From Chiloscyllium plagiosum (taxonomy: Eukaryota), in NCBI RefSeq assembly GCF_004010195.1, contig NC_057746.1:26742070-26806069 (forward strand): 64,000 nucleotides of DNA, read 5' to 3'. Shown in pieces: positions 6,435-64,000 of the stretch. A program made the position numbers and the translations under genes. Below the pieces are notes generated by a model. It was not told the DNA's origin and did not search any database. It saw only the letters and a list, made by a program, of their open reading frames with translations. How positions within the stretch are numbered: position 1 is the stretch's first letter; every line of letters starts with the position of its first letter.

Positions 6435-6495
6435 ATGGTGACAGAACGGTGGTCAACAGCCCCTTTCTTCCTTCTCTTTTCAATTTCTCTTTCAG
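6435..6495 (+). CDS. Gene A exon 1, signal peptide MVTERWSTAPFFLLFSISLS(G)
   Basis: ACAATGG start context, hydrophobic core, strong phase-1 donor CAG|GTAAGT matching the phase-1 IgV acceptor. Confidence 0.8.
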
Positions 6496-9400
6496 GTAAG
6501 TGAATCGTCATGCTCTTATTATTGTTAATTGTAGGACAGGAACAATAATTAATTATAGTAAGTTGACGATTACGTGCATTTCTGAAAGCATAGCTTAACA
6601 AGTTGCTGTATTGGCTAAAGCAGACACAGAACTAAATAGCATCTTCAACATTTGATGAGGCATGCATTTAATTACACAAAAACATTCAATTATTCCATTT
6701 GGCATCAATACATTTTAAAACTTCAGCATTGAAAATCACTCAAACAAAAGCACGTCCTTCGATAATATGGTATGAATTTCAAAGACAGACGTCTTGTGCT
6801 AACAATTTACATTAACATCATTCTTTGTATGCGCCGATGTTGTTCAGCTAATTGCATTATGCATCTCCATTAATACAGCTGCGTATTTTTATTTTGATTA
6901 AAACAATTATAAGCATTTTATGTACATCTCACTGATATCTTTCCTATTTGTTTTGCTAAATAAATACTTTGCTGAGTTACCAAGCTTGAAGTACCAAACA
7001 CAATTCAGTAAGCAAGTTAGTAGATTAGTGGTCTCCGAAAATCAAAGGCTACCTTCAATCTAATAACTGCAGGCCATTTAGTTCAGCTACCACAATATTC
7101 CTACGGTGGATTTCTGAGAGTCGTGAATCTTAACACTTGATAATATTTTTATAACTTTTTGAAACCTATTACATTCTCTTTACGCTACTTATGCTAGCAA
7201 CATATCTAACATATTGACTGCCAATGGCACGTTAGTTACTTAGTTTCATATTTTCCTCTTTGTTTCTGATTAGCTAGATCTCATTTCTGGACAATACACA
7301 TTAGGGAGGATGTGACTGCATTAGATAGAGTGCATAAGAAGTTTACGAGAATAGTTCCCAGGATGAGTAACTTGAGCTATATTGATAGAATTGGGAAATT
7401 GGAGCTACTTACTTTGGAGTTGAAAAGACTGACAGATATAGTCGATTAGATTACCTACAGTATGGAAACAGGCCCTTCGGCCCAACACGTTCACACTGAC
7501 CTCGGAAGAATAACCCACCTAAACATTCGATTTACCCCGACTAATGCACCTAATACTATGGGCAATTCATCTTACCTGCACATCTTTTGATTGTGTGAGG
7601 AAACCCACGCAGACTCAGGGAGAATGTGCAAACTCCGCACAGTCACCCGAGGCAGGAATTGAAGACATGCCCCTGTAGCTGTGAGGTAGCAGTGCTAACC
7701 ACTGAGCCACAGGCTTCCTTCATCTGAGTATATCGGGAGAAAATACTCTTCCTAAAAGTGACTAGAAGTAAATACATTTGCAGAAGAAGCAAATTTGTAT
7801 AAAAAATGAACATTCCCCTACAGTGTATAAAAGCAAGTTATTGCAGAAGGTAAAAATTTGAAATAAAAGCAGTGTACTGGAGAAATCAGGTGATCTGGCA
7901 GCAGATTCCTTTTTCAGACACCGAAAAAGAAAAGCCTAGCGTTCTGAAGAAACGTCAGGTCGGCCTGGAAGTGGCAAATCTATTTCTCTCACTATTGATT
8001 GTGCCAGACCTGCTGAGCTTCTCCAGCAATTGCTGTTTTATTTTAATCTCACACAGAGAATGCTTAGGATCGGAAATGTCCGGCCTGAACTCGCTGTGTT
8101 GGATGAGTCAAGCAAGATATTGAGACAGACATTAAATGATTATTTGAATAGAAACAATGATGAGGGTTACGGCAAAAAAGCAGAACGATAAATCATACTG
8201 TTCATTCAAAGAGGCGGTGTATATATGATGGGCCGGATTGCCGTCTTCTGCACCATAATAATTCTGTGCTTTTATGTAATCCTCTGTAACCAACAGACAT
8301 TAAACCAGCCAATTGTTTTATTATTTGGAAACGATTTACCATTATCACTCTTCAAATCTTCTTGTTAAAAATGTCTCATAGTCACCAATATTGGCGCTCA
8401 CATATCATTGCCCTTCAGTGAGGGACAATCTTTGCTGCCATTCCCCATAGCTATTCTGAGTACTGGGTATTCAGTTTGAAACCAAAGATCACGAGCAGCA
8501 CTCCAGATATAGACTCACCAGCGTCAAATACAATCTCAGAATAATTAAACTAGATTTTTCATTTCTTTCATCTGGAATGCAGCAAATGGGGAGATATAAT
8601 TTGCACAAATGATTGTTTCAAAGTATTCCAGAAACTGAAAGGGATAGCCTTACATTTACTAACAATTTAAAAATCCATTTTAGGTTTTAGAAATGGCATA
8701 ATTGTCTGTACATATTTTGAAGAAATTAATTCTGCAATTATAATAACAATGTTGAACACGTATTAATATGGACATCGAGGACTAATTTGAAAATATCAGA
8801 TCATTTGAAGTTGATTTGAATTGTTACAACAATCTGTCAGATGTTGGAAATAACGTGATTGTGTCACTTATGCTGTTTTTCAAATACTGAACCTTTTAAA
8901 AATAAAACGATATACAATAACTAATGCTCAGAATCTTTTCCTGGGGATGTGTATTTTCTCTGAAGTTAGATACTTGTTGCGGGTCATGATCAGCGTAAAA
9001 TCTATCGTTTATTGGTTGAATATTACTGATTCTGACATTTGTTTAATGATTCAGCATGCAGTTAAAACTGTACAGTTTTCATACCCCACCCCTATGGATT
9101 TTAAAACTCATAGATCAAGTAAGAAATTTTGATAAAAACTAAAACGAAGCTTTAAATGTGCACAATCATTCAAATAACTTTACTTGCACACGCTACATGC
9201 AATAGATTTGTAGACAGCTGTCGCTTTCTTTGAGGTGAACAGCCGAAGGAAACACCCATGACAAAATATAAGATTACAGTTTAAGATTACAATCTTTAAA
9301 TCTAGGAAGTAAATGATATTTCTTAATTTAATGAGGCGATGTAACAAAAATAAGAGGCTTGATGTGATTCCACTCTGTGCACTGTCACACGCAAACAAAT

Positions 9401-12400
9401 ATCAGCTCATTTGTAGATGAAAAAAATGCAGCTTATGTTCCAAGAGACAACGCTGCCGAACGTCATTGCTTAAACAAAGACTTGAAGAGGTTCACGAGCT
9501 CATCATGATGACGATCTGCCCCTTCACTGAATTAGTTTCTTATGGCAGCATGTTACATAAGACTTGATAAATACTATCGCCCATCAGATGAATCTCATAA
9601 ATGGAACGTTGATTCAATTCGTTTAAATTTAAGATATCGACAGTTTTAAATGATTCATTCTGTATATTGTAGTTTATTGATGAATTAATACAGGAAACTA
9701 ATACTGAAAATGCATACATTTCTCCTAACTGCCGCTGGGTACATTAATTAAACTCATGTTATTACATTTCCATCACATTGAAATGAGACATCTGTTGATA
9801 GATAATGTTTATTGAAGGTAAAGTGCATTGAGTTGATTTAGGACGTATTTGTAGTGAAGCAAGAAAAAAAAATCAACATTTCCTTGCTTGAGATGTCAAC
9901 ACACCAAAGAATTTCCTCGCAGCATTGACCTATAATCGCAATTGGATAAATCGCTCAAAAGTATTTTTCTTTCGAACAGTAATCTTTGGCTACTGCACCA
10001 GCTACACTTTATACGCTTAATACAATTTGGACAAAAAATGTTCATGTAGTCACTGCCGTCAAATGATCTTAGAATAGCATACTCAAAATTTACTTAATAG
10101 CATTTCAGTCAGAAGTGATACTGCGATCACTAAACCAAGTCAGCATGGTTAAATCGTGCATGATGCAACAATTTAGCCAATTATAATGATAATGATTTTT
10201 TTCTGTTTCGTGCACAATTAGGTATGGACGCTGGTGATGTAGTTCAAGCTCCCAAAAACATTCATATAATGCAAGGCCAGAGTGTGATTTTGAACTGCTC
10301 CTTTCGTTTGCAAGGACTGGGTACCTACAGCTGGAGAAGGGACGACATTCCTATAGACTTTGACTCACCAAGATACAAACAAAGAATTACAAAAGCTGAC
10401 ACTAATGCTTTCAAGTTGAGGAAAGACGCATCCATTCAAATTAAGAATATGACAGAGTGCGATTCTGGCAGATATTTCTGTGAGATTGAAATAATGGGGA
10501 AACAGAAGAGTACAGGCAATGGAACCATGGTTACCGTGGAACGGCGTAAGGAACGGAGCCATAAGGAATTTTGAATTTGTTTTTGGAATTAAAACGTTAC
10601 CTCATTGTTTCCTCCATGCTATTATCATTCTATTTCTCTGCAACCTCTCTCTGTGTTTGCCTGCGTTGCTCAGTCTTGCCACCTGTGAAAAGTGCACAGT
10701 TTATCTCTCTCCCTCCACACTTTCACCTTGTCTGTATGTTTTTATGTCTCTTCTTATGTTCCAGTCTCAACTCTCGTAACTACTGTTTTATTTACCTTAT
10801 GTTTTACATATGCATTTATAAATAAATAAATTGTTTTTCTTTCATTTCTACAGATGCTTGTGATAAAGAAAGGCCTTTAAAAGCCTTGCCATTTGACTGG
10901 ATATGGATTGCAGTGGCAGGAGGAGTCACGCTGCTGGTCACTCTGTCGCTGCTTGTGGTAATCATAATTCTTGCTCGACGAAACAAAGGTATTGATCGTA
11001 TTGAAAATGGCAAGCAATCATAATGCTTTCTAACTCTTGCCCCATAGTACTAAAATGTTGCAGTAGTATGAAAGATCTCATGCAATTTTGAAGTGGTTAA
11101 TATATTTACCATTTTTGAAAGAAACAAGACTAAGTGATACTAATGTTTTTCATGTGTCATGGGAGCAGCTCTGGTCTCCAGGTCATGCAAAGGTATTTTG
11201 CTAGTGGAGAACCTTCAAGAAAAAACGATTTACTCTAATTATGCCACGACAGAGAAACTATGCGTATCAGGAAAGCTTAGGGAGGCAAAGTATGTTTTCT
11301 GCAGTAAACTTGAAAGGAGGATATGGATAGATAATCTAAACATAGATTAATAGAATATACTTCCGTTAAATGGCAAAAGATGGGTCTTCAGTGAAAACGC
11401 AATATAGATGATTCTATATTTAATTTGGGAAAAAAACAATCCTATCCAGAGAGTAGTTAGAATGTGCAGCTCGCCACAAAAAAGTGTGATTGAGGTGAGT
11501 AGGGTAGATGCATTAAAAGAAAACTTGGATAATAATATAAGAAACAAGGAGTAGAAAAAATATGTGATGGAGTTAAATGAGGAAGGGTTTGAATAATCTG
11601 GTATGGATAATAAACATCAATATGATGTTGTGGACCAAGCCAGTGCCCCTCAAATGATTTTAGAAATTAGGTAGGATCTTAACGTTTTTATAAGACAGAT
11701 GTAAAGTGGATATTCCAGGATTGCTGCAGCTGTTCAAACCACTCACGATTGAACTGTATTTCAACACTACGGATGAAACATAAACAAAATAAAACAAAAT
11801 TTAGAATTGCTTAATTATTTGTAAATCCACTGACTCGAAAATGCAACTTAACAATATTGTTTCAAATCACGCCGCATCCCTTAAACACCCCTTGGCAAAT
11901 GATAAATTCAAACGCAGGCTCTTACAGGCAGGAGAGATTTCAGAGAGAAATTCCAGGGGAGACCTTTGTTGAAGCCTGGAACCTCTTTTCACGGTAATTA
12001 CTTCACTAGGTCCCCAGCAGTTTTCTGACTGAAAGCAACCAAACTAGGGAGAAAATAGCTGAACTGGGGCAACGGACAACTACCCTGCCATTGTTCAAAG
12101 TAACCAAATCCAGTCAAATCTGCACCTTTGACTTTACGACCCCTCTTGAGAAAAAACAAGGACAACATAACCTTGTTAAAGGGGCAGCATCGTCACTATG
12201 ATGATGTTAGATAGAATGACCAACTTCTTTGCTCTAATTATAACACAACTTTTAGACTTCCAACATGCTCTGCTATCTTTTGTTTTCCAAAAAATGGAGG
12301 ACAATATGTCTTAATAATATGACTTATAAACTAATCCCACTGACATAGTCAAATAAGGCGCAAAAGGGAAACTAAGCAGAAACAGAAAATGAATTATTGC

Positions 12401-15400
12401 TAGCAGATTTTGCAGTTCAGATCATAACGTTAACCAACAAATTATAACAAGAAGCACATGGATCAGCAGATATATGTGCATATTTAATAAATAGACAATT
12501 TGTTTTCATTTGTATTAAACAAAAATAATACTAACCATAATCATATTTTCCAATTTTCTTGCAGCATACGCTTTGCTTGTCAGGTTAGTCGCTCAATAAC
12601 TTGCTTGTCGATATATTTTGATATAAAGTTTTTCTCTGAAGGTTGCTAAGCATTTTCTTATTCTACAGAGAATGTTCCTCATTCGATTTTGCAAAAGAAC
12701 AGGGTAAGTGCTATCCAGATTTATTTGTTTCATTCAAAACACTGTCAACAATTGCATGAGCATAATGATTTGTATGTGTGTATGCGTTTTGTGTGTGTGT
12801 GTATGTGTCATTGCTTCAAATCTATGATTTCTAGCATATTTGGGTTGAGAAATATAAGCTTAAACAGAGCATGCAAACATGCACTGTTTGTAAAGGAAAG
12901 GTTTTGTAAAGGCATCACCGTGTCTGACAAATATAAACATGTCTTGGACAATCAATTGCTATTAATAAGCGAAGTATTAAGATCCAACATGATTCCTTTT
13001 TGCTCAGAGCTTTAAGGAACATCTATGCTGTCTTTTTCTTTGGAAAACAGGCAACTATCCATGTAGGGAGGTGAGAGAGGAGGTGTGGGCGCAGGTTTTT
13101 CAATTCCTGCGGTGGCAGGGGAAGGTGCCAGGATGGGAGGGTGGGTTGTTGGGGGACGTGGACCTGACCAGATAGTCACAGAGGGAACGGTTTTTGCGGA
13201 AGGTGGAAAGGGGTGGTGAGAGAAATATATCCTGGTGGTGGGGTCCGTTTGGAGCTTTCCATATCCATCAAAGTTTTACTTGCATATCCACTAATATCAT
13301 TTATTGTATCCGTTGCTCCCAATGCGGTATACTCTGAATTGAGGAGACTGGACTCCTCCTAGCAGAGCGCTTTAGGGAACATCTCGGGACACCCGCACCA
13401 ATCAACCACACCGCCCTGTGGCCCAACATTTCAACTCTCCCTCCCACTCAGCCGAGGACATGGAGGTCCTGGGCCTCCTTCACCGCCGGTCCCTCAACAC
13501 CCGACGCCTAGGGGAAGAACGCCTCATCTTCTGCCTCGGAACACTTCAACCCCAGGGCATCAATGTGGACTTCACTAGTTTCGTCATTTCCCCTTCCCCC
13601 ACATCACCCCAGTTCCAAACTTCCAGCTTAGCATTGTCCCCATGACTTGTCCTACCTGCCTATCTTCCTTTCCACCTATCCACTCCACCCTCCTCTCAGA
13701 CCTATCACCTTCATCCCTACCTCCATTCACCTATTGTACTCTAGGCTACTTTCTCCCCATCCCCACCTTCCTCTCACTTATCTCTCCACCCTTCAGGTAC
13801 TCTGCCTCTATTGCTGATGAAGGGCTTTTGTCCGAAACGTCGATTTTCCTGCTCCTCGGATGCTGCCTGAACTGTTATGCTTTTCCAGCATTCTAATCCA
13901 GAATCTGGTTTCCAGCATCTGCAATCATTGTTTTTACCTAACTATCCATGTAGGTTTGAATTTAATCGCATATCAATTAAACTTTGGGACTTCAAACTGG
14001 GTGAAATTTCATGGGATGTGCCTCAGAACAGGTTCAGCAGAAATTGTAACTGTCACTTAACAAACTCAGAGATATTTCGGTAACATTATTTCATGACATG
14101 CTAAGGCCTCAGAGGACAACTTTTGCAAGATTGGCCAAACGTAGTCCATCTGATTGCCACCAGCATTCAAGGTATTGTAAGATGACAGTTCCATCAGGCC
14201 CATTTATAGACTTCCTCAATGTCTTTGTAAGAATTTGGAATTATTCAAATCAACAGCAGTTTCGGAGATGCTGAAAAGCAGGCTGTGCTTTAAAGAAGAG
14301 GTAGAGCGTAAGGTGCAATGAAAATATTTGTAATATTTGTTTTAACGTGATATGAATGCTGAATATTAAAGCACAAAAACTTCACGAAATCGCCATTTCT
14401 TTGAGGACGCTCTTTTTAATCAAAATGAGTGCTCACTATTTTTAACAGCAAATTCACGCTCTTAGAATACCCCAGGCATCTGAAGAACAACTATTCTCAA
14501 GTCTCAATTTCTCTAAACATCTTGAAAATACAGATTCCTTATTGTGCCCGCATCGACTCAACTTTGCCATTCACTTAAATAAGATCTAACAACATCAAAA
14601 TTAGGACATGAATACACAAATTTAAAACAGGAGTGAGTCACTTGGCATCTTAAAGGTGCAAGGGCACTCAATTACTCCACATTCTGCCTTTTACATCGTT
14701 GTTTATCAAGAATCTGTCCAGCTGACTTACAAAAAAGTTTCTGTTTCCACTTCCATTGAAGAAGAGATTTACAATGATTCCAGACACGTAGTGAGAAAAG
14801 AAATCTTCCCGCATCTGTTTTAAATGGGCGACACTTTAAATAGTGATCCTAGTTCTAGTCTTCCCAGTGAGTGGAAGGATCCATTCCATATCTGTCCCCT
14901 CAATACCTCACAGTACTTTTCATTTTGATTCAAATCGGCTTTTACCCGACAATGGATAAAAGTCTGTAAATGGCTGAACTTATTCTCATAAGAAAATGAA
15001 CCGATTTCAGGAGAACTAAATCATGCGACTTAAGCCTGTTACATAATTCAAGTGGTAATTGTCTATTCATTAATGCCTGGAGGGCAGTTAACTGTCAACT
15101 TTATTGCCCTGTTTCTCGACCTTGTGCAGACTAGCCCATAGTGAAGATGCTTTATTTCCTTTCCTGACAGACATTGACGAAGAAAAAGGTATTTTTAAAA
15201 AATATGATGATGCCTATATGAGACTAGCTTTTCATTCCAGCTGTTTTATTGACCACATAATTTCCAATTTCTTTACATCACCATTGCTTACTTTTCTCTA
15301 AAACGTACTCTTCTATCTTTCACAGAACATGCACATTAGTATTTGGAATAGTTGCTGTTCGTCTTTCAGTACACAATTTCACTTAAGTTAATCCTTTTAA

Positions 15401-21400: not shown

Positions 21401-24400
21401 ACTGTACTCCAAATGTGGCTGAACAAAGGTTTTATACAGTTGCAAAATGACTTGCCGATATTTATGCTCAAGGCCCCAACTGACAAAGGCAAACATGCCA
21501 TATGCAATCTTTATCACCTTATCAATTTGCGTTGCAACTTTTGGGGAACTATGGATTTGCACCACAAGATCCCTGTGTATATCATCGTTATAAGAGTCAT
21601 GCTATTTACTATACTATGTCTGTTGTCATTTGACCCATCAAAATGCATTTCCTCACGCTTGTGCGGAGAAAACTCCATCTACCATTCCTCTATCAATCTT
21701 TCCAACTGATCTATATCCGGCTATATTGTCCGAGAAACTTCTTCACTGCCTACAACTCCACGAATTTTCGTGTCACCTGCACACTTACTAGTTATACCAC
21801 TCATATTTTCATCCCAAAACGACTGCCACAAACCTCCAGTCAGAGATAACCTCCCCCCTTCCCCCCCTCCCACACACACACAGTTATATTTGGTTATATT
21901 TGGTCTTCTATAACGAAGTCAATTTTCTATCCAATACGCTAACTCACCGTGCATCCGAAATGACTAGCCTACCATGAGGGACCTTAAATACTTTAATAAA
22001 ACCCATGAAGACAACTTCCACTGACTTCCTTTGATCAACTATTTTCATCACTTCCTCAAAAATGAAACAGATTTGTGAGACAAGGCAGTTCCCCACCTCC
22101 ACTCCACACCACCCCACACAGACACACACATACACACACACAAGTCATGTTGACTATCCCTAATAAGGGCGTTCTTTTCCAAATGCATGTAAATCCTATC
22201 CCTAGGAATTTTCTCCAATACTTTTATTAGCGCTGATGCAAAGATCACCAGCCTTAATTTCCCAGATTATCCCTGATAATCTTCTTAAACAAAGGAAGGA
22301 TATCTACTATTCTTCAATCTTCTGGGATCTCACCTGAGGCTAAAGAGCATACAAAGATCTCTGTCGACACCACACCAATCTCCTTCTTTGCCTCCCTCAG
22401 TCTCGTGGGATAAATGCCATCAAGTCCAACCTCAATGTTTTTCAGGGCACCAAATAGCTTCTTCTTTATATTGTCATGCCCTAGAAATCAACATACTTAA
22501 GCCTAATGTCACAATTTTCAATTTCCTTCTCCCTGGTGAATATGATGTGAAGTACTCATTAAGGACTTCACCCACTTTCTCTGGCTCAACGGATGAATTG
22601 CTTCTTTGACCTTGAATGGACGTAATCTTTCCCTTGCTCCAAATATACGTATAAAATGTCTTAGAATTCTCATTAACTCTACCTGCCAAGGGCATTTCGT
22701 TGCCTCTTTTAACCCCCGTAATTCCTTGTTTATATTCTTTCCTGTTTCCTTTAAATTCCTCAGGGCCTTGCCTGATTTCAGTTCCCTGAACTTTGCATTT
22801 GTTTCTTTTTTTATTTTTGACTAAACTTTCAATACCTCTTGTTACCCCAGGTTTCCGAATCTTGCCATCCTGATCGTTCATGCTCACAAAAATGTACTGG
22901 TTCTGAAATTTGATTGACTGGCTTTTCAATAAAACTCCCACATGTCTGATATGGATTTGCCCACAAACAACCACTCCTAATCTAATTTATCTATTTCCTG
23001 CTTAACTCTTGCAATTAATCTTCTGTTAATTTATCAGTTTCACCAAGGACCCGTCTTATCCTTATCCATAACTATATTAAGGCTTATCGAATTATGGACA
23101 CTGTTCCCAAAATGCTCCACAACTGAAACTTTGATCACCTGGCCAGGCTGAATTGGTTAAGATCTCTCCTCAGACTTACCTGTCAGGATTGATCTTGCAG
23201 TTTAACTACATAACATTGCATATGCCTACTACTGGTTAAGCATTTGCCTTGGTGCCATCAAACCACTAAATTGTCATGAAGTGACCATATAATGGGTCCA
23301 ACTATTTACCAGACAAGAAAGGTCCTCCACTTCACACTTTCCTGTTACATTAAGCACTTCTTTGTCTCCCAGACCATCTTTGAGGACAGCATTAAAACAC
23401 ACCCAATATCTTTGTTGAATATTTTCAGTAAGACAAGTGCAATTGTGCCAAAAACCTACGGAAATAAGTCATAACAAAAAAGAACTAGATAATAATTTGC
23501 TTACTAGGCGATTCTCTTTTTTTTTCTTGTCAGTCACATTTTACAATATGATGATAAAACAAGTTAACAGACACAACACACACGGATATCGAAATTGTTT
23601 GGCAATTTAACACTAAAGTAAGCGCAATCTTCATCCTGTCACATTCAACAATAAAGCATTTTCGATGTTAAGCAGTTACGGTCCATACACAAAAAACGTT
23701 GGCATAAAAAGAAAGAAAATTCACATACATAGAAGATCCATTCAGATTCAAATGCTACTCACATACTGTCCGGCTAGAACATTTTACCGCTTCTGATGTG
23801 TTTCGCTGATTGTAACGCCTTGTGTACAGTTCTGAGGTTCTGTAATACTTTCTTTCCTCTTTAAAGTTTGTTGTAAATGGTGATAAGGTCAATTGGCCAT
23901 GAATGCAAGCATATGTGAGCATTGCCATTAACAGGCAGGCTATTTCTACTAATACCATACATCATAACTTAAAAGCTTATAACCAGAATCTTGGTTATAA
24001 GTGTTTACAAAAAATGTTTTATAAGTGGAAAGTTTTTTCATACCAAAGTATCCTATATATGTCAAAGCATATTTCATAAATAATTTGTTAACTTCATTTC
24101 TCCTTTGGCCAAAGCAGAATTACCACAAAGGAACAAAGTGCGAAATCCTGCCCAGCATCAGGTAAATTAATATTTGCCTACTTTGTTACATATTCTCACG
24201 GATGATTTAATGTGCAACTTTATAGATATTTATGCACCATGAAATTAATTAAACCAAATTGTTTATTAAAAAGTCATCAGTTAACACCACCGGAAAACCG
24301 ATGATATGGTGTACAAAAATATCGGAACAAAAAGTCATCAAAGCAAAATGCACTAAAGCGGATTGAAACAGAAAACAGTTTCAGGTGGTTCACCTGTTTT

Positions 24401-26154
24401 TCTTCCGAATGTATAGGAGTAAAGATTGCCATTTGAATAGTTCCTTTTTTATAAAATTCTCAATTTTCATGATGGGTTGGCACTTTCAGAGGGAGAGGGA
24501 AAATTTACATTTGAACAAGTATTAGGGAATTTGTCATTCGTTTTACCTTTTTCAATTTGCATTTCAACTTGAAGTAATACTCTGAATATTTCAGTACTTC
24601 TAAGTCATGAATTTCAAAGCTCCTCAGAGCGCTATTGGTTCTGCTTGTAGAATGTGACAAAAAAAGCAATTCAGCCATTGCTTCCGTTTGCAAATATTAT
24701 AAAGGTCAATGATAAACTGTGTGGTTACCTTTTAGTGTACACAGTAACTTTAAGTGGGACACTGCAACCTATAAACATTTGCAGCAGCAGATACTTCAGA
24801 AGTTATTTCATCATCAGAATATTAAGCACAACATGCTTAACAGCTCCGATCACGCAAATATGATATAGGATACAAAATGTCAAATGGAAATAACCCTACT
24901 GCACCCATTTAATGGAATATTTTATTTTGCCACTCTGTAGAAATTGCTTAATAATCATATTAAGATTAAAGTTCCATATTCGGCCTTACAATTCCTAACC
25001 CCCCACTATGGACTTTGCAATATATTTTAACATAAAAAGTGTGCTGAATTAGGCAGTCTCTGCTGTTTGGATGGAGCATTATGTTTTCTAGAGAGCGTCA
25101 CACCTGCCACCTACTCGCCAAAACTCTAGGGTGGTTGATGTAGGAAATTCTTGGGGTGTCTTGCTTGCCTGTGGGCCTATTCAGGCAGTTAGGTAACCAG
25201 GAACACGTAGAAGGAACAATATCAATCGGGACGCATGGCATTCACTCCTCCCTTTTCTGTGGACTGCCAAGCTTGCTCTGTGTTCTTTGAGTGGGGGGAT
25301 TGCCTGGAAGCGGCAGTCATTGCCAGCAGCAGTACCAGCAAGTTTTATTGGCTTGCAACTCTACCCATGTAGGAATTGTGCACCTTTACCCAATTCTATA
25401 TAAAATCGGGGGGCAATTGAATTCGAAACGTCTTCACCAGTTTATACATCTCGGAGAGTATATGGTTGATTGCACTAACGGAAAGTTTCTTTTGAAGAAA
25501 CTCAAGAAGCTGATTAGGTTTTTCTTTGCAATTGATTTCCAAACTGAAAAAGTCACATCCATTATGTTTATAAAATAAGGATCATCCTTTTGGATGTCTC
25601 CAAAAAGCAATACTAGGTGTATGAATGTCACTGAGATCAGTCTTTGTTGTATAATTGCAAATGCAATATCGCATTCATTCAACACGAATTACTTTCCTGT
25701 TGCTTACTTCTTCTTTTCCTCATTATTTATTCCAATCAGCACTGGGATTGTTTCATTAATCTTCTTTCACTTCATACAACACCCTACACTTGCTCGTTCT
25801 TTCCTTGCTGCTCAAACGTTTACATTCTGGACACCAACTCGAGAGTCAACTGTGATTTTAAGGAATTGTTGACCTTAATACATGTTTTGCAACGGCTTAA
25901 TTTTGTACACCACAATTTCAGGTAGATATAAATGTTAACTCTATAACTGAAGGAAAGGATGGAAATGTTGAGTTACAAATGCTCACTACACAAATTAAAT
26001 GAGTGAAAGAATACCTTATTTTGGTAACAAGACTAACGAATATAATATTCATGTTTTTTTTTCAAAGCGTGATGATGCTTACCTTCACTGCCATGGCAAT
26101 GAACCCAAACCAAAGAAAAAACGCCCACATCCTCCAAGGAGAAACGTGGAGTAG
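6435..26154 (+). CDS. NCR3: Gene A: NKp30/NCR3-like single VJ-type Ig-domain type I membrane receptor (multi-exon span; ~241 aa model)
   Basis: Phase-compatible GT-AG exon chain 6435-6495, 10222-10545, 10854-10988, 12565-12583, 12669-12703, 15171-15188, 24115-24161, 26068-26154 (726 nt, ends TAG). The V-domain end CEIEIMGKQKSTGNGTMVTVE resembles human NKp30 CRVEVLGLGVGTGNGTRLVVE as recalled. The symbol means NCR3-like; orthology is not shown. Confidence 0.7.
7290..8270 (+). mobile_element. Old CR1 3' fragment interrupted by a SINE and a degenerate PLE-terminus element (~7850-8045)
   Basis: Remnant ALDRVHKKFTRIVPRM frame and a CR1-type 3' end. Confidence 0.55.
7444..7710 (-). mobile_element. 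HE1-like tRNA-derived shark SINE
   Basis: Reverse strand GTGGCTCAGTGGTTAGCACTGCT head, TTCAATTCC B box, CR1-like 3' tail; similar to copies at 17555 and 31895. Confidence 0.8.
10222..10545 (+). CDS. NCR3: Gene A exon 2, IgV (VJ-type) domain, NKp30-like
   Basis: Acceptor ttag|GT and donor C|GTAAGG. Motifs VQAP..GQSVILNC, YSW, ASIQI, DSGRYFC and G-x-G-T (GNGT)-x-V-T-V are all in one exon. Confidence 0.93.
10854..10988 (+). CDS. Gene A exon 3, stalk plus transmembrane (HACDKERPLKALPFDWIWIAVAGGVTLLVTLSLLVVIIILARRNK)
   Basis: Polypyrimidine tract with tacag acceptor, phase 1 to 1, ~26-residue hydrophobic helix followed by RRNK, donor AAG|GTATTG. Confidence 0.9.
11626..12196 (-). mobile_element. 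Solo LTR related to the LTRs of the Gypsy element at 40912-46503
   Basis: Both ends align to the reverse complement of the 40912-41522 LTR; flanked by tatga (11621-11625, 12197-12201). Confidence 0.8.
12565..12583 (+). CDS. Gene A cytoplasmic micro-exon (AYALLVR)
   Basis: ttttcttgcag acceptor, AG|GTTAGT donor, phase 1 to 2; an 85-nt intron leads to the next phase-matched exon. Confidence 0.65.
12669..12703 (+). CDS. Gene A cytoplasmic exon (ECSSFDFAKEQ)
   Basis: ttctacag acceptor, strong G|GTAAGT donor, phase 2 to 1, open frame. Confidence 0.7.
13068..13939 (+). mobile_element. Neptune-like PLE 3' fragment (GIY-YIG) with 5' inversion and hammerhead core
   Basis: 15-bp TSD aactatccatgtagg (13053-13067, 13940-13954). 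FTC.STNIIYCIRCSQCG reads on +, while the upstream PGTFPCHRRN segment reads on - (13068-~13250). CTGATGAAGGGCTTTTGTCCGAAACGTC at 13814-13841. Confidence 0.88.
15171..15188 (+). CDS. Gene A candidate cytoplasmic micro-exon (DIDEEK); alternative phase-2 acceptor at 15129/15130
   Basis: tttcctttcctgacag acceptor and AAG|GTATTT donor. Symmetric phase 1, so it is not needed to keep the frame. Confidence 0.4.
15686..15850 (+). mobile_element. HE1-like SINE 3' half
   Basis: gctaaaattgccc..gtgtccagggatgtg..gaagggctgtttccaca..ttctatga tail. Confidence 0.65.
16320..16908 (-). mobile_element. Poseidon/Penelope-type PLE 3' fragment, open GIY-YIG endonuclease frame plus hammerhead
   Basis: NVVYKIPCKDCTKHYIGQTGR..RIHEH..REFLEAWH; 14-bp TSD ttgtgggtctctgc (16306-16319, 16909-16922). 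Confidence 0.9.
16357..16396 (-). ncRNA. Minimal type-I hammerhead ribozyme motif of the PLE
   Basis: gcaCUGAGGAuGUCaCCUagacAGGgGACGAAACGUC|ugc: conserved core, stem II, 3-bp stem I. Confidence 0.7.
17066..17266 (+). mobile_element. tRNA-derived SINE (second family)
   Basis: TTAGCTCAATTGG A box and GGGTTCCATCC B-box-like motif; related copies at 55899-56095 (+) and ~55757-55880 (-). Confidence 0.6.
17555..17885 (-). mobile_element. HE1-like SINE, near full length
   Basis: Same family as 7444-7710. Confidence 0.8.
17900..20815 (+). mobile_element. Old, heavily decayed CR1 LINE with nested inserts
   Basis: Remnant PLFKK, KFADDTK motifs and a CR1-type 3' end (gaatggcctactcc..ctatgttcc). Confidence 0.7.
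20451..20666. mobile_element. Older palindromic PLE-terminus element nested in CR1
   Basis: 11-bp TSD aagttcaagat (20440-20450, 20667-20677), ~70-bp inverted arms, decayed GAGGAAGGGTC..GACCC(G/A)AAAC core. Confidence 0.75.
20870..23150 (-). mobile_element. CR1 LINE, decayed
   Basis: LQLYKTFVQPHLEYSVQFWSPY..RFTRMLPGL and GEVLNEYF on the minus strand. Confidence 0.88.
24115..24161 (+). CDS. Gene A cytoplasmic exon (AELPQRNKVRNPAQHQ), NAGNAG acceptor
   Basis: Pyrimidine tract then AAG|CAG| tandem acceptors in the same frame, donor CAG|GTAAAT, phase 1 to 0. Confidence 0.55.
26068..26154 (+). CDS. Gene A terminal coding exon (RDDAYLHCHGNEPKPKKKRPHPPRRNVE*)
   Basis: T-rich tract with caaag acceptor, phase 0, TAG stop, followed by a repeat-poor AT-rich stretch with AATAAA at 27263 and 27454. 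Confidence 0.55.
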   Translation, partial: RDDAYLHCHGNEPKPKKKRPHPPRRNVE

Positions 26155-38100: not shown

Positions 38101-41100
38101 TGACTCGTTGAAATCATGTTCTGATGCAGCTTCGTTGCAATCATACCAACACCCACAAACGAGAAAAACAAACAATATCTCTCTCTTTAACGGATAATTC
38201 CTTAGTTTAAACAGTTGTCCCTACTTCTAGATTCTCACAGATACATCCTTTCCGCATGCATCTTGACAAGATCCTTCAAGATGCTAAGTTTCAGGCAAGT
38301 CACCTCTTAATCTTCGAAACTCCACTATGTATAAAGCTTGACTTGTCCAAACTGTTTGCATAAGGAAATAAGTCTTTTTCCAGGTATTCCAGGTTTAAAG
38401 AAAACTTTAAACCACTTTGAATACATTTACATCAGATCACTGTGACGCAATGAGTTATTGTTGTCAATGTTACTATACCCGTAAGCTGTTGATTTCTTTT
38501 TCTATTGTAAACTTAGATGTCACGTAGGCTGTCAAATGGACTTCCTTGTAATTTACTTATCTGTCTATCATAGTCGTATAATTTAATTTTACTGATTTCA
38601 ACTTATTTTACCAGTTCATTTTATGTTGCTTTATGTTTAATTTACTGTGAAAATTTGTGCCATACCTTGTGAAGGGGGATGATTCTTTCACTTGTTAGGT
38701 CAGTTCCCAAGACCAGCCCCATGTTCTATTCCTGTGGAATTTTCACAGGCATTTGGATGGAAATTTGGCGAAATTTCCCTTGATACTTAATCATAATTTC
38801 CTAGCTGTCTGCTGTCAATTAGAGTATCAAATCTAAACACACCACTAAGAAATTAACGCTGAAATGTGAACAGTATGGTGGCACTTTTACTTTTTGAAAA
38901 TCTATTGTCATATTTTTTTCCAAGAACTGGTCGGTCTCACATAGAAAGCATTATATCTAATGGTGCAAAATAAGAGCAAGGCTTTATGTTGATATTCCAT
39001 ATCAAAGATATTTGCAAGGGTTATTAATTAGTAAGTGGGTAAGCCCACTTACTCTGTATCTAAACTGTACCAGTGCATCGAATCAATTGTGCATCCATCT
39101 GGCATAAAGAAAACAAGACAGAACCGTTTCTAACAGTTCAACAGAATATGCTAGTCAAATAGACGATCTGAGATAGAAAACATATATGACTCTGTTACCA
39201 TACTCCACACCAAACAGGTACGTTCAGGAAAATATTACTGCCAAATAGAGAGGTTTGTTATTGGAATGACAGCCGGGCCAGCTGCAATACCAACTGTGAA
39301 AGGTAGAGTTATCTAATGCTATTGCACCGACTCTTGGTTGCTTTACTTTAACTTAGAATGAAGCTGAGATAGTGCACTTTGTTCGAGAAGTGAAATATTA
39401 TCAGGTGCCTTTGGGCAAATGCTGTCATCGCATTTAATTCACTGCCAGTAAGATTTCGTTTAAAATCAAATATAGTTTATATCTAAATGGGTAATGATCT
39501 CACATTTACGTTTTTTTAAAATGCTTTCACAGGTGTGGCTGTCTTTGGCCGGACCAGCTTTTTTTTGCATATGTATAATTGGGTGAATGTGAGGAATTAT
39601 TTTCTTTCACAGCTACCGTGTATATGCTGCAGTTACACCACGGTGTTTCCAAGATTTTGGCACAACGATGGTGAAGGAACAACGATGTATTTCCAAATCA
39701 AGATTGTGTGTGACTTGGAGGGGAACCTGCAGGTGACAGGTTTCCCTTTTTCACACATCTGCCAGAGTTGTTAAGACTATTGGAAGCAATATATGATTCT
39801 CGTTTAGGATCAATGTATGATCGTTTGCTTCATCCTTACTGATTAATGTACAGGCTTACATTCCTATTGAAATGTAGAACAACGAACTAGAATACCAGTC
39901 CAATCAAAATTACAATTTCATATCGTTTTCCAAAAAGCTTCAGATCAAGGAGTTTCAAAATATTCGTGGAATGCCCAATTGAGATGGCTACTGGATCAGA
40001 AGTTTTCATTACAAAGGTTGCGATCAATCGTGTTTCTGTTGTAGTAACAGTTGCAATTGTTCATTAAAGCATAGAGAATCGGTAATTAGGTTCGGGGTGT
40101 TTTGCTTCTGCCCATGTAACATTACTGTGAAACCTGTGGAATGTCCAATCCCAACTCTATCGCTCCCAGGGCTCATGGCCCAAGAGCAGCCGAGCGCAAA
40201 ATTACATACAAAAGTTCTGAAAGTTCTTTTGTTCTGTCAGTTTTTGGTGGTACATGAACAGTCAAGAGAACACTCAGCAATGTTAGCGCACAGTTCTTAC
40301 AAACTGCGATGAGATTTGCAATGCAGCCACATGTGTAATATGGATAATTTCCATTACAAACACGTTTGCACAAAGTTGTTGCAAACACGTCTGGACATTT
40401 GTATTCAGCCTATTCTCTCTGCCTTACCCGGTCTTTCCTATTCGAAAGTAGAACACTAATAACTATGCTTTCCAGTCCAATAGAGTCCTTGTAAATAAAG
40501 TCACTGCAATGCTAAAGTCACTGTTTTGTACAGTATATATTTACAGAGCAAGCTGCAGACTTGGAGCTGTGGAAGTTCTAATCTGAATCATTTTCTTTAA
40601 ACTTAGCTTATGTATCATGCATGATTCTGTACAAATGTGGCAAGTGGAGATTTGTCTGGAAAGTAGGAAGGCATCAACGTCAGAAAGGAGTTTGCCATTG
40701 TCAATTTATGACATCATATTTGTAAACGAAGATATCAAACTTTCACACAACTAGCCTTTTTACTGGTCTGCTACTGCGAAGATTTGCAGAGAGAGGGAAG
40801 AGAGAATGTCTTACCTCACAGCCATAATACCAAGTGACATCGTTGCCTTTCCTTTGCTTGTTCTAAATAAAGTCTTGACCTGTGCAAAGGTGTTTTAAAC
40901 TCCTTTGTTACTGTGATGCTGCTGCACCTTTAACAAAGTTATGCTGTCCTTGGTCATTTTCAAAAGTGCCAGATTTACCGAGTGGTCTGGTTTGGATGGT
41001 TTTTGGAGCCAGTTTGACTATAGCTAACAGAAACTGCCTGTGGAAAAGGCTTTCAAGTTTAAAATAAAACTCATACAATGAAAAGGGAGTGGCCAGTTCC

Positions 41101-55898: not shown

Positions 55899-56095
55899 GT
55901 TAGCTCAGCTGGCTGGATGGCAGGTGTGCAATGCAGAGTGTCGTCAAGAGCACATGGGCAATTCTCATACTAGCTGGGCTCACCATAAAAGTGCAGGTTT
56001 ATTGACCGAACCATTTTCCTGAGGTGCGGTTGTCCTCAAGTTGAACTGATAACTATTTGTCTCTCTCTATGCAGGAGTAGGACTTTGGGGATTAC
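55899..56095 (+). mobile_element. tRNA-derived SINE (family of 17066)
   Basis: gttagctcagctggctggatggc head and cctgaggtg.ggt..cctcaagttgaac body. Confidence 0.55.
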
Positions 56096-59414: not shown

Positions 59415-59504
59415 NNNNNNNNNNNNNNNNNNNNNNNNNNNNNNNNNNNNNNNNNNNNNNNNNNNNNNNNNNNNNNNNNNNNNNNNNNNNNNNNNNNNNN
59501 NNNN
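59415..59504. other. Assembly gap (90 N)
   Basis: Run of N. Confidence 0.99.
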
Positions 59505-60127: not shown

Positions 60128-62540
60128 ATGTTCTCAGACAGAGGTCCTCTGCCTGACAACAACAATGGGATTGGTTGTCAGGTAATTGAACAACTTGAAG
60201 CAGATTTCTTTTAAAACCTTCAAGTAGTGTGATGACTCTCAGAATAGCAGCTCATGATTTCGAACCGTTGCTGGTGTTTTTGAATCTGTAGTCTGTACTG
60301 TTTGTCCTGTTCGGGTCCGAACTCTGCTGGTTTAAAGGTGGTCCGGAGTCCATGTGGGATGAGTTGGTTACGGAGGCATGCACTGAGGAAGCAAATGTGG
60401 CTGTGGTACCGAGTTTGTTTCAGGACATAGTTGAAGAGCTTCAGGGCAGAGGAAATGACCTGGGAGTTGCAGTGGGAGAGGGACTCCCTGAGATTCTTGT
60501 AGAGAGAGGAAGAAAACTTCGTCAAGGCAGGCATCCTTGCAAGAGGAATCGCAGTAGGTTTAAAATCAACGAGATAAAAACAATGACTGCAGATGCTGGA
60601 AACCAGATTCTGGATCAGTGGTGCTGGAAGAGCACAGCAGTTCAGGCAGCATCCGAGAAGCAGTAAAATCAACATTTCGGGCAAAAGCCCTTCATCAGGA
60701 ATATCTGATGAAGGACTTTTGCCCGAAACGTCGATTTTGCTGCTCGTCGGATGCTGCCTGAATTACTGTGCTCTTCCAGCACCACTGATCCAGATTCTCA
60801 ATTTCTTTAGTCATTCAGCATTTCCTACACCTACCAGACGTTCCTTTCACCCCAACCGGAATATACTGTCTCTGGACTCTCGTTTTCTCATGTCTGAAGG
60901 CTTTCCATTTTCCAACCATCCCTTTATGTGTGAACATTTGCCCAAATCAGCTTTTGAATGTTTTTGCCTAACCTCCTTCTCCAAGTTTCACCTGCCAGTA
61001 GGAACATCCTCTCTACGTCTATCATATCTACTCCCTTCATAATTTTATATGTTTCTATAAGATTTTTCTAAAAACCAATGAATATAATCCCGGTTGCAGG
61101 GAATTGCTTGCAATTGTTTATAGTATATCAGATAACCTTCTTGTTGTCGTGGGAAATAAAGAAGGGAAATGTATATATTTATGTAAGGATGCATAAATGT
61201 TCGGTCACAATTACTAAGGAGGTTAAGGTAGGTGAGGAACTTAACAAGCATTTAACCACGAGGCAAGTGATACTGACCAAAATGATGTAGCTCCATGTTG
61301 ATTTGTGATAGAGATCATTCTAACATCTTAAAAAAGGTCGACTTTGACATGGTAGATGCATTGATTTCAATTTCAAGTTCGTTAGAGTTTGGAAAATTGA
61401 TGAAAATAGGTCGAATCGTGTTAGGAAAAAGATCAAAAGTTCTCAAGAATAGACAGGGTGGGAAATGTGGTATTCACTTCAGCATTGGTTTGATTGATTG
61501 TCAGAGCAGACTCGAAAGGGCTTTTAACCCCTTTTAATTCTTATGTTGTTGTCTTCATATTCTTGCCTCAGCACAACTCGGGAATCAAATGCAAAACAAA
61601 AACAAGCAAGACATTGTATTTTGTACAATAGCCTCATGTTAATGTGTTGCACAAGAATGTAAATTTGCAGCTTTGGCCACACCACAGAAGCAAATTCAAA
61701 CGTAATCAGAAGATATGTGCAACTAAGATGACACTGATTTTACATTTTTTTCTCAACCACTTAGCTTTTTCTTGTTCCAAATTAAACACTAAGATATTTC
61801 CTCTTGAAACCACAGAGTTTGAGTCTTTACACTATTACTTACCACTAAAACTGATTCAGTTAAAGAACCATATATGTCATCATATTCTTTACAAGTACAA
61901 TATTACAATATGTTTCATGTAAATATCAGCTATGTTTTGCTGAGAATCGACTTAGCTTACTGATTGCTCATATTTTGCATTGTCTAACAAAGTTCCCTCC
62001 ACACCTCAACATTGAAGATGTATGTCGACGGTTTCCTCTACAAAACTTAACATGATAGGCGAGAGAGCAGAATTGCCAAAATTGGTCAATGAGAATCCTG
62101 CTAATGCAATGGATTAGATCATAAAACATAGTGGGAAATATGGAAAATAATCACTTTAAAGCATGTATTTACTTTCCAATGTGCTGTTGAATCGTGCTAT
62201 GGGGTAACCATAGAAGGATTTTGTTTCTGTTTTGTACGTGACATCTGAATCTCTGATGTTCACAGTGAAAGTAAAACGTGGAAAAACATTTCATAGCCCA
62301 GCTGCAATTGTTGAAATGAGCAAAGAACGAAAAGGGACAATAAAAATGCAAAATACATCCATGAAACCAGAATGTTTCCCAGTAAAGCAAACTCCTTCGT
62401 TATGCTGCACAGTAGAACAACAATTCGAAATCAGGAGATCAAACACAATTCTCAGCAAATCATATTAGATCAATTTCAATTGAATACTCATGAAGGATAA
62501 AAAGCATTCGTTAACATTTACAAATGCTTCACTTACGCGT

Positions 62541-62641
62541 TCAGGGTTGGTTTTCTGATATTTGTGCAATCGATATTACATAGCACTTGTCATCACTCAT
62601 CCTACTCCTGACTTTCCTTGAAAAAACATGACAGTGTAAAA
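62541..62641 (-). CDS. Gene B candidate short cytoplasmic exon (FLHCHVFSRKVRSRMSDDKCYVISIAQISENQP*)
   Basis: ttttgttcag acceptor, phase-1 frame open with basic stop-transfer residues; a GTAAGT donor lies 4 nt after the stop. Confidence 0.5.
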
Positions 62642-63043
62642 CTGAACAAAATTGAACAGAAAATTGGTTTTGTCATTCCATGAGACAATAGGTCAAACTT
62701 AAAGTGAGTATGTGAGGCATGGAAAATTCATCAGACTTGCATCTTTCAATGAATGTATTTAATTACTTCAATAACACAAACTCTTATATTTTAATGGCCA
62801 TAGATATAAATTTGCATTGAGAAAACGAAGGACATACAAGCTGTGTTAGTACACACTGCACATTTTTGTTTCCATTTACCAACTAGAATTATTTCATTCA
62901 TATTTTGATTTTATATTCCAAATGCCAATAAAATTATCTGGTATCCCAATCGATATAGATTATCCATTATTCCTGGGCTCTTGGGTAGTTGATCAACTTT
63001 TCTCACTCTGCAGCAAATTCAATTGGAAATCTTCAAGACTCAC

Positions 63044-63160
63044 AGAAATACACGAAAGAAATTGTGAGAATGATGATGACAGAAAACACAGAAAGTTTCA
63101 ATCCAACCAGAATCATCTGCCAAAGTAGAGACCTTCCGCTGCTCACAAGTGGCTGGCTGC
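63044..63160 (-). CDS. Gene B transmembrane exon with intramembrane Lys (RSQPLVSSGRSLLWQMILVGLKLSVFSVIIILTISFVYF)
   Basis: Acceptor tttttgttttccgtag, phase 1, hydrophobic helix with a central K, donor T|GTGAGT. Confidence 0.85.
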
Positions 63161-63870
63161 CTACGGAAAACAAAAAGATTCGAATTCAGCATTTGCTTCC
63201 CATAGTTCACTGTTACAGTTCAGTGCAGTGCTCACTCGGCTTGCTGCCAATTCCTTTTCACATTCCGTCTAGTTTGGTCTCGAATCCTCACATTTGCTTT
63301 CGTTTTGGTTGTCAATAATGGACTCTTTCCCCCCACCCCACCCCACCCCCCCCCCCTCCCCCATTGCCCTCGCCTCGCGCCACCACCACGAAGATTTCTC
63401 TTGTGGCAAGTTGAAAGTGTTCCCATTTCTTGGTAAAAAGGTCGAGATTCAATGCCTACCTGTCCCGGAGACGTGTAGTGACATGGTCAGTTAGGTTAAT
63501 TAAACTAACTACATGATATTGGAAGGAAATTTGTTGTATTTATTATCTAACATGTCGGCTGAGCACCTATTGCATTGAATATGTGACAGTTGCGTGCCTC
63601 ATGTCATACAGATCTTCATTCATCTGTTTGAAGTTATGATGTTGAACAAAAAATTATTCTATGAAATGCAACAGTTTGCAATATATATTGCAAGAGCTTT
63701 CTAATGTGTGAATATGGGCCACTATAACAATGAATTATCTTTATCTATCTAACTATATAGCCATCTAATACATCCAGCTCAATTTCTATCTCATCGTCCC
63801 AACTCTAGCCATTGCCACGCCCTCGCTCTTCACACGCATTATTGCTCTCATTCTCGCCATGTAAACTTAC

Positions 63871-64000
63871 GTTTAACTGTTAACACTGTTCCTGGTCCAA
63901 ACTCTTCCTCAAAGAACAATATTACCTGACAGTAATATGTGCCCGAATCATCCTGTTTCAGATTCGTAATTGCGATGGAAGCATTTCGATTGGTTTTGAA
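63871..64000 (-). CDS. Gene B IgV exon, 3' part (FKTNRNASIAITNLKQDDSGTYYCQVILFFEEEFGPGTVLTVK); continues beyond the window
   Basis: Minus-strand translation shows ASIAI, DSGTYYC and FGPGT-x-L-T-V; phase-1 donor C|GTAAGT; colinear with the gene A V domain. Confidence 0.92.

What the first reader, a model, noticed from the sequence alone, without database searches (positions are those of the whole stretch)
6435..64000. Convergent pair of NKp30-like VJ-IgSF receptors with opposite signalling architectures (possible paired-receptor system in a shark)
Seen: two genes with colinear VJ-type V domains point towards each other. Gene A has an uncharged TM and a ~70-aa multi-exon tail with two Tyr; gene B has a Lys in the TM and at most a short tail. 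Known: mammalian NKp30 is a single activating receptor with a basic TM residue coupling to CD3zeta/FcRgamma, and paired activating/regulatory isotypes are typical of the KIR, NITR and CD300 families. Inference: this is an expanded NCR3-like cluster that has evolved adaptor-coupled and self-signalling members.
Basis: partly seen in the sequence, partly recalled or inferred. Interest (0 to 1): 0.8.

Follow-up and report, generated by a model that had tools for sequence, protein, structure and literature searches.

The report
Shark NKp30 cluster; pairs lie elsewhere
These two facing genes are real, spliced members of a known shark family of NKp30-type immune receptors, one likely a switch-on receptor and the other with an unusual conserved tail, but they are too different to be a matched pair; the likely on/off pairs are other genes on the same chromosome.

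Summary
Gene A (+, 7 exons, 234 aa) has an uncharged TM and a 65-aa tail with two Tyr. Gene B (−, 173 aa) has TM Lys153 and a 3-aa tail. Expressed-looking contigs of a close relative support both models. Both are orthologues of nurse-shark proteins already deposited as NCR3 (79% and 84% V identity). They lie in a 7-V-exon cluster beside AIF1 and PRRC2 on the MHC class I chromosome, and gene A's V model matches human NKp30 best.

The pair reading is not supported. The A and B V domains are 33% identical, the cluster background. A's tail has no ITIM, ITSM or ITAM in 11 of 11 orthologues scanned. A broken V exon lies between the two genes.

Better pair candidates lie outside the window. L005 (ITIM+ITSM) and L006 (TM Arg) share 81% V identity. 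L013 (two ITIMs) and L016-L011 (TM Arg) share 86–88%. Both sets are oppositely oriented, and DNA identity stops at the V-exon edges, as gene conversion would leave. The key 2021 paper could not be read, so novelty is uncertain.

The parts
6435..6495 (+). Gene A leader exon (ATG at 6435)
   Evidence: leader-V joint in 3 of 4 runs
10222..10545 (+). Gene A VJ-type V exon (C46, C107, DxGxYxC, GxGT)
   Evidence: the model's top four Foldseek hits are NKp30
10854..10988 (+). Gene A stalk (Cys131) and uncharged TM exon
   Evidence: Cys present in 11 of 11 aligned orthologues
12565..12583 (+). Gene A tail exon 1 (19 nt), with Tyr175 in KAYALL
12669..12703 (+). Gene A tail exon 2 (35 nt)
   Evidence: joint to 24118 in 2 of 4 runs
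24118..24161 (+). Gene A tail exon 3 (44 nt)
   Evidence: joints on both sides
26068..26154 (+). Gene A last coding exon: Tyr211, basic/proline-rich end, stop; first AATAAA downstream at 27263
39043..39306 (+). Broken V exon (stop codon and frameshifts). Its best match is the first V domain of two-V proteins in horn shark and sawshark whose second V is gene B's orthologue
   Evidence: nhmmer E 7.6e-7; tblastn E 4e-9 to P0019 and 3e-9 to P0020
61547..63032 (-). Gene B 3' UTR, contiguous with the TM exon; ATTAAA at 61538
   Evidence: contig X1 record 6 covers 61547-63160 unbroken
63033..63160 (-). Gene B terminal coding exon: stalk, TM with Lys153, 3-aa tail, stop
63871..64000 (-). 3' part of gene B's V exon. 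The exon continues to window position 64221 and the leader exon lies at 64438-64396, beyond the window
   Evidence: V-TM joint

Best explanation
Genes A and B are two old, separate subtypes of the shark NCR3/NKp30 family in a multi-gene cluster next to AIF1 and PRRC2, and they are likely not a matched activating/inhibitory pair. Gene B has one V domain, a TM Lys and no tail (shown). It likely signals on through a CD3zeta/FcRgamma-type ITAM adaptor (inferred, about 0.85). Gene A has a stalk Cys, an uncharged TM and a conserved tail without ITIM, ITSM or ITAM (shown). It most likely works as an adaptor-independent, disulfide-linked modulator, in which the invariant membrane-proximal YALL is a sorting/endocytosis or single phospho-Tyr site and the basic proline-rich end is an SH3 dock. 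That would make it CD28/CTLA-4-like in logic (inferred, about 0.4, the weakest step). The family does appear to contain paired receptors, but these are other genes: L005/L006 and L013/L016-L011. They combine opposite TM/tail architecture with V exons likely kept alike by gene conversion (architecture and exon-limited identity shown; opposite signalling and shared ligand inferred).
For: Orthology: A groups with nurse-shark NCR3 QTT61900.1 (79% V identity) and ray orthologues (95/88). B groups with QTT61904.1 (84%; 100/99). Fold: A's V model has pLDDT 94, and Foldseek ranks 1-4 are NKp30 (E 1.3e-10, TM 0.82; SIRP next at 5e-9). NCR3 is the best single-domain PDB hit for A and for the family profile (85-87 bits against 65 for SIRP). 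Synteny on C37: PRRC2 26.46 Mb, AIF1 26.55-26.56 Mb, V cluster 26.586-26.874 Mb, three TNF genes 31.5-31.6 Mb, MHC class I 0.45-17 Mb. B: the basic residue is followed by 15-21 uncharged residues in 7 of 7 basic-TM relatives measured, and a zeta/gamma-type TM exon with Asp exists in this genome. A against B: 33% V identity, within the 30-40% among unrelated genes of this cluster; no DNA alignment and dS about 1.8. A tail: ITIM, ITSM or ITAM in 0 of 11 tails; KAYALLVRE invariant in 10 of 10, Lys at the -2 position. Other pairs.
Against: B's best single-stretch PDB hit is an antibody light chain (40.8 bits), above NCR3 (31.6 bits), and B was not folded. In the VIA search NKp30 (Z 15.1, rmsd 2.6, 103 aligned) is tied with IgNAR V (14.6, 1.7, 96) and TCR delta V (14.2, 2.0, 100). 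The tree does not prove one NCR3 clade (75/78) and does not reject A with the CD28 family (p-AU 0.116) or B with TCR/Ig (p-AU 0.226). An exclusive A+B clade is rejected (p-AU 0.0155), but not once B's sister V1 domains are added (p-AU 0.236), and A+L002+B+V1+L010 is a weak clade in the best tree (61/47), so A and B may still be nearest lineages. Receptors only 33% alike can share a ligand. An AIF1+PRRC2 paralogue pair also lies on C30. No function was tested. The proline motif scan used loose patterns with no chance control. L006's TM exon is predicted from DNA only.
Confidence: 0.78

Rival explanations
1. One reading: A and B are a functional paired set that shares a ligand, with A inhibitory or self-signalling through its two Tyr and B activating.
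For: Opposite TM architectures and opposite orientation are real. Tyr175 is invariant and in YxxL. A and B fall in one weakly supported group with L002, L010 and V1 (61/47).
Against: V identity is 33%, with no DNA similarity. There is no ITIM, ITSM or ITAM in 11 of 11 tails. Tyr211 is lost in P0160. Neighbours with canonical ITIM/ITSM exist, including L010, 22 kb upstream of B.
Confidence: 0.1
2. Gene A is a co-stimulatory receptor of CD28-family type, or an atypical inhibitory one, and not an NCR3 in function; its V only resembles NKp30.
For: It has a stalk Cys, an uncharged TM and a multi-exon tail with Tyr and prolines. The tree does not reject A with the CD28 family (p-AU 0.116). NKp30 is itself counted in the CD28 structural family (PMC6514059).
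Against: Its CDR3 lacks the PPP/EIP motifs and its tail lacks the YxxM/YxN motifs described for CD28 members (PMC11599192). The CD28-type V exons found here map to C12 and C7. It sits at the NCR3 syntenic position, and NKp30 is the top fold match.
Confidence: 0.2
3. The likeness of L005/L006 and L013/L011-L016 comes from ordinary duplication or exon shuffling and not from selected gene conversion, so the family has mixed architectures but no maintained pairs.
For: L005/L006 have dS 0.36, old enough for TE-rich introns to lose alignment. There is no transcript for L006's TM exon. An orphan TM+ITIM unit lies downstream of L006, so its V might use that one.
Against: L013/L011 have dS 0.074 and 93% identity limited to the exon plus about 30 bp, with no intron alignment. 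The tandem duplicates L011/L016, at a higher dS of 0.16, keep about 80% identity over 1.6 kb. The TM exons within each set differ in type.
Confidence: 0.25

Closest known systems
Nurse-shark NCR3 family (Kinlein et al. 2021, PMC8273117; text not held, title seen in reference lists; 'eight subtypes' is recalled). Deposited proteins QTT61898.1, QTT61900.1, QTT61903.1, QTT61904.1
   Same: A is the orthologue of QTT61900.1 and B of QTT61904.1. L004 matches QTT61903.1, which has the ITIM LTYAQV. L003 matches QTT61898.1. PMC12227049 lists eight nurse-shark NCR3 accessions; that these QTT proteins belong to that set is my inference.
   Different: QTT61900.1 ends two residues after the TM exon, as intron read-through would give, so A's 61 further tail residues are absent from the deposit. 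Whether the paper discusses TM charge, ITIMs or pairing could not be checked.
Human NKp30/NCR3 (PDB 3noi, 3pv6, 6yjp)
   Same: Single VJ-type V domain, basic TM residue and MHC class III location (PMC6514059). It is the best fold and sequence match.
   Different: Human NCR3 is one gene with a TM Arg. Here at least 14 intact V exons lie on C37, B uses Lys, and A has no TM charge and a 65-aa tail.
Paired receptors homogenised by gene conversion (Xenopus CEACAMs, PMC5112662; KIR, Ly49, SIRP and SIGLEC named there)
   Same: L005/L006 and L013/L011-L016 show 81-88% V identity, opposite architecture, opposite orientation and exon-limited DNA identity, which are the criteria used in that paper.
   Different: A and B meet only the architecture and orientation criteria. 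No ligand or pathogen is known for the shark pairs.
CD28/CTLA-4/PD-1 family (PMC11599192)
   Same: Single V domain with GxG, uncharged TM and Tyr-bearing tail. L005's ITIM+ITSM tail is PD-1-like in layout.
   Different: A lacks the CDR3 proline motifs and the known tail motifs, and it lies on a different chromosome from the CD28-type exons found.

Membership tests
NCR3/NKp30 family | Non-rearranging VJ-type V domain in one exon | tested here: met
   A 10222-10545 and B 64221-63871 each carry the Cys pair, Trp, DxGxYxC and GxGT
NCR3/NKp30 family | Orthology to named NCR3 proteins | tested here: met
   QTT61900.1 (79%) and QTT61904.1 (84%) are sister to A and B in the tree, 93/97 and 100/99
NCR3/NKp30 family | Closest structure is NKp30 | tested here: met
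   Gene A only: Foldseek ranks 1-4; the VIA top hit is tied within 1 Z. B was not folded, and its phmmer best is an antibody light chain
NCR3/NKp30 family | MHC class III synteny (AIF1, PRRC2A, TNF) | tested here: met
   AIF1 about 25 kb and PRRC2 about 125 kb from the first V gene; TNF cluster and class I on the same contig. The human neighbour order is recalled
NCR3/NKp30 family | Monophyly with tetrapod NCR3 against CD28, TCR and Ig | tested here: inconclusive
   A clade in the best tree at 75/78; alternatives not rejected. No mammalian sequence was in the tree, and the TCR/Ig outgroup labels are my reading
NCR3/NKp30 family | Basic TM residue for CD3zeta/FcRgamma coupling | tested here: met
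   Met for B (Lys153). A has no such residue, so A is a family member that does not work like human NKp30
NCR3/NKp30 family | Binds B7-H6 | not testable with these tools
   needs a binding assay
Paired receptors (A with B) | Highly similar ligand-binding domains | tested here: not met
   33% identity, dS about 1.8, no DNA alignment
Paired receptors (A with B) | One partner carries ITIM or ITSM | tested here: not met
   0 of 11 A tails
Paired receptors (L005/L006; L013/L011-L016) | Highly similar ligand-binding domains | tested here: met
   81%; 86% and 88%
Paired receptors (L005/L006; L013/L011-L016) | Opposite signalling modules | tested here: met
   L005 IHYAKV and TEYATI against L006 TM Arg; L013 VQYCAL and LQYCAL against P0044 TM Arg. 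Exon joining for L005, L006 and L013 is predicted, not read from RNA
Paired receptors (L005/L006; L013/L011-L016) | Gene conversion limited to the V exon, opposite orientation | tested here: met
   clear for L013 (dS 0.07-0.14), suggestive for L005/L006 (dS 0.36)
Paired receptors (L005/L006; L013/L011-L016) | Shared ligand with opposite cellular outcome | not testable with these tools
   needs experiments
CD28/CTLA-4 family (gene A) | CDR3 PPP/EIP motif and YxxM/YxN or ITIM-ITSM tail motif | tested here: not met
   A sequence against the motifs in PMC11599192

The most novel reading that the evidence does not exclude
The shark NKp30 family is a true paired-receptor system at the ancestral MHC class III site. 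ITIM/ITSM and Arg/Lys members are kept alike by V-exon gene conversion, as in pathogen-driven pairs, so the single activating NKp30 of mammals would be the remnant of a balanced family. Gene A is a third class, conserved from sharks to rays, with an undescribed tail motif. One V exon (L006) may even be spliced to either an activating or an inhibitory TM cassette.
Probability: 0.4. Interest if true: 0.65.

Novelty: new member of a known kind. Interest (0 to 1): 0.4.

Why it matters
NKp30 is regarded as the one NK receptor traceable from sharks to mammals (recalled) and is a model for the unsplit VJ ancestor of antigen receptors (PMC10751288, PMC12227049). If sharks use it as inhibitory/activating pairs under gene conversion, that names candidate 'self' receptors for shark NK and T cells, suggests pathogen pressure on them, and gives specific pairs to test. 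Gene A's full tail also corrects a tail-less deposited orthologue. The A/B arrangement itself is ordinary.

Tried and rejected
Complex prediction of B's TM with two zeta-type TM chains gave no verdict (score 0.08) and is not used either way. The full-length fold of gene A failed (pLDDT 42.7); only the V domain folded. The run search listed no RNA holder on record. The two raw single-cell runs laid gave no reads on the genes (X8 on B; X9 on A), so they are no test. The MHC class II beta search found nothing and the tool marks that as uninformative. The Atlas search with A's TM and tail gave no hit at 0.9 or above. A spliced tail for B through the GT at about 63043 was rejected as the main form, though contigs drop rare isoforms. 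No V exon was found for the orphan TM+ITIM units at C37:26,693,401 and 26,723,363. L008's TM was not found; a 6.9-kb assembly gap lies there. L012's TM was not found, and L002's tail was not traced. In the Pfam scan of the flanks, 140 of 247 candidate ORFs were sent and 5 hit a family. Kinlein 2021, Flajnik 2012 (PMC3709836) and Ohta and Flajnik 2015 (PMC4594805) are not held. Nine paper searches listed no paper that by title or abstract describes paired shark NCR3 genes, but they cannot see those three papers or their supplements, which bear directly on novelty. Look-ups of earlier scan findings gave nothing on this locus.
Full report
1. Observation. Gene A starts at the ATG at 6435 and has seven exons with GT..AG introns, giving 234 aa. 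This is identical to an existing RefSeq model, XP_043534105.1, listed for Chiloscyllium plagiosum on a contig as long as G000:C37. It has a leader, a VJ-type V exon, a stalk/TM exon with Cys131 and no charged TM residue, and a 65-aa tail with Tyr175 and Tyr211. Gene B is on the minus strand. The window holds only the end of its V exon; the rest and the leader lie within 440 bases past the edge. The protein, P0009, is 173 aa with Lys153 in the TM and three residues after it.

2. Transcript support. Four runs were laid on each gene. The contig runs are only guessed to be RNA, but their joints fall on the predicted GT..AG sites. Runs X1-X3 come from a close relative. For A: leader-V in X1, X2 and X10; tail exon 2-3 in X1 and X2; tail exon 3-4 in X1. 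The other joints were not among the rows shown. For B: V-TM in X1, and one 1.6-kb contig that runs from the TM exon through the cryptic GT at about 63043 to 61547, next to an ATTAAA. So B's TM exon is terminal in the main form. I did not see the relative's stop codon directly, and a rare spliced form is not excluded.

3. Family. A has orthologues across the sharks searched (57-98% identity) and in two rays (46-47% V identity). Its nurse-shark orthologue is deposited as NCR3 (QTT61900.1), and so is B's (QTT61904.1). NCR3 is the best single-domain PDB hit for A and for the family profile, but for B alone an antibody light chain scores higher. A's V model (pLDDT 94) has NKp30 at Foldseek ranks 1-4. 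In VIA it is first but tied with IgNAR and TCR V. On C37, PRRC2 (26.46 Mb) and AIF1 (26.55-26.56 Mb) directly flank the cluster, and TNF genes and MHC class I lie on the same contig. NCR3 in the class III/TNF region is stated in PMC6514059 and PMC12272517; the AIF1-PRRC2A neighbourhood is recalled. A paralogous AIF1/PRRC2 pair exists on C30. Trees (79 of 101 domains; 44 chosen rows) resolve the subtypes but not the deep family. All NCR3-like rows form one side at 75/78, and A with the CD28 family is not rejected (p-AU 0.116). The outgroup labels are my reading of the sequences.

4. The cluster. In 464 kb around the window there are seven intact V exons and one broken one. In order: L002 (+, uncharged TM); L005 (−, uncharged TM, last exon IHYAKV and TEYATI); L006 (+, predicted TM with Arg); A (+); broken V (+, window 39043-39306); B (−); L010 (−, P0177, TIYAKL and IVYATV); L004 (+, P0022, no canonical ITIM here, but LTYAQV in the nurse-shark orthologue). 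Seven more V exons lie at 17.6-18.6 Mb in the 190 kb fetched there. Mixed orientation is the rule, so the convergence of A and B carries no special weight.

5. Are A and B a pair? PMC5112662 (passages read) defines pairs by similar ligand-binding domains with opposite signals, and reports 80-93% identity, opposite orientation and conversion limited to the exon. A and B are 33% identical, like any two unrelated cluster genes. They show no DNA alignment and dS about 1.8. An exclusive A+B clade is rejected (p-AU 0.0155), but not when B's sister V1 domains are added (0.236), so the tree gives only modest support. No ITIM, ITSM or ITAM occurs in 11 of 11 A-type tails scanned. Tyr175 sits in an invariant KAYALLVRE, with Lys where an ITIM needs a hydrophobic residue or Ser, and Tyr211 is replaced in 1 of 10.

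6. Better pair candidates. Six V-exon pairs were compared with 1.5-kb flanks. L013/L011: 93% over 376 bp, exon only, dS 0.074. L013/L016: 93%, exon only, dS 0.14. L005/L006: 87%, exon only, dS 0.36. L003/L008: 80%, exon only, dS 0.47, with L008's TM in or beyond an assembly gap. Control L011/L016 (tandem duplicates): dS 0.16, yet about 80% identity over 1.6 kb including introns. A/B: nothing. L013 has an uncharged TM and two ITIM-type exons, whereas L016+L011 form a two-V protein with TM Arg and a short tail (P0044). Each set is in opposite orientation. This is the pattern gene conversion leaves. It is strong for L013 and suggestive for L005/L006.

7. Mechanism. B: PMC6514059 and PMC4536121 (passages) describe basic TM residues pairing with the Asp of ITAM adaptors. 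B has such a residue and no tail, and a zeta/gamma-type TM exon is in the genome. The Lys lies 17 residues from the inner end, in register with Arg-bearing relatives. By recalled spacing this fits CD3zeta/FcRgamma better than DAP12. This step is inferred. A: the conserved stalk Cys suggests a covalent homodimer. The YxxL six residues from the membrane suggests sorting/endocytosis or a lone phospho-site, and the basic proline-rich end suggests SH3 binding. I commit to an adaptor-independent modulator that captures or tunes ligand, at about 0.4, with co-stimulatory and atypical inhibitory roles as rivals.

8. What is known. The expanded, MHC-linked shark NCR3 family is published (Kinlein 2021: title seen in reference lists; content recalled; text and supplements not held). 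Four deposited nurse-shark NCR3 proteins were found here, including one Lys-TM tail-less form and one ITIM form, so the contrast was visible to those authors. Possibly new: A's full tail, which the deposit lacks; the conversion-linked pairs; the orphan ITIM cassette. Papers seen as passages: PMC12227049, PMC11599192, PMC10751288, PMC12272517, PMC6514059, PMC5112662, PMC4536121. Seen only for reference entries: PMC10450919, PMC12619710, PMC12863176.

9. Verdict. Interest 0.4; novelty is a new member of a known kind.

Noticed in passing
window 39043-39306 (+): Broken V exon matching the first V of two-V proteins P0019 (horn shark) and P0020 (sawshark), whose second V is gene B's orthologue. Here it lies downstream of B and on the opposite strand, which suggests an inversion or split in this lineage.
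   Followed up: partly
G000:C37:26,693,401 (TM exon) and 26,701,787 (tail exon), + strand; L029/L028: Intact-looking uncharged TM exon and a tail exon with LHYVQL and VEYTSV, with no V exon of their own and no N gap. L006's V lies 19.5 kb upstream, beyond its Arg-TM exon. This is either an orphan or an alternative inhibitory 3' end. A decayed second copy lies at about 26,723,360-26,725,730.
   Followed up: partly
L010, G000:C37:26,828,478-26,817,275 (−): The nearest canonical ITSM+ITIM receptor (P0177) lies 22 kb upstream of gene B on the same strand, with 38% V identity to B.
   Followed up: partly
P0017 (QTT61900.1) against window 10854-11022: The deposited nurse-shark orthologue of A ends like a read-through into the intron after the TM exon. 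It is either an incomplete model or a tail-less isoform; read-through here would give a 10-residue end.
   Followed up: partly
G000:C37:17.62-17.66 Mb and 18.49-18.61 Mb (L003, L011, L016, L009, L013, L012, L008): A second group of NCR3-like genes lies 0.65 Mb from class I genes, in mirror arrangement. L009's relative P0186 has a long tail with ITIM-like and ITAM-like matches.
   Followed up: partly
P0137, P0157, P0091, P0101, P0054, P0103: Non-shark relatives also include both ITIM-tail and basic-TM forms (named ones: turtle, frogs, bichir), so mixed NCR3-like families may be general outside mammals. A bichir model is fused to PRRC2A (P0191).
   Followed up: no
L014 (C89912) and L015 (C17:68.92 Mb): VJ domain followed by a C1 domain (P0028, P0031), a separate non-rearranging family off the MHC chromosome.
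   Followed up: no
window about 41,600-46,000; 16,380-16,979; 37,494-37,913; 54,900-59,200: Decayed retroelements fill the introns and the gap between the genes. There is a weak RVT_1 hit at 44589-44951 (1 of 10 ORFs scanned); the element classes are my recalled reading (LTR gag-pol-like, Penelope-like, CR1-like).
   Followed up: no
L055:6639-7004 (−), L056:511-873 (−), L056:1819-2121 (−): Envelope HR1-HR2-like, reverse transcriptase and zinc-knuckle fragments about 100 kb beyond the cluster suggest an old endogenous retroelement; observed only.
   Followed up: no
window 59415-59504: 90-base assembly gap, the only N run in the window.
   Followed up: no
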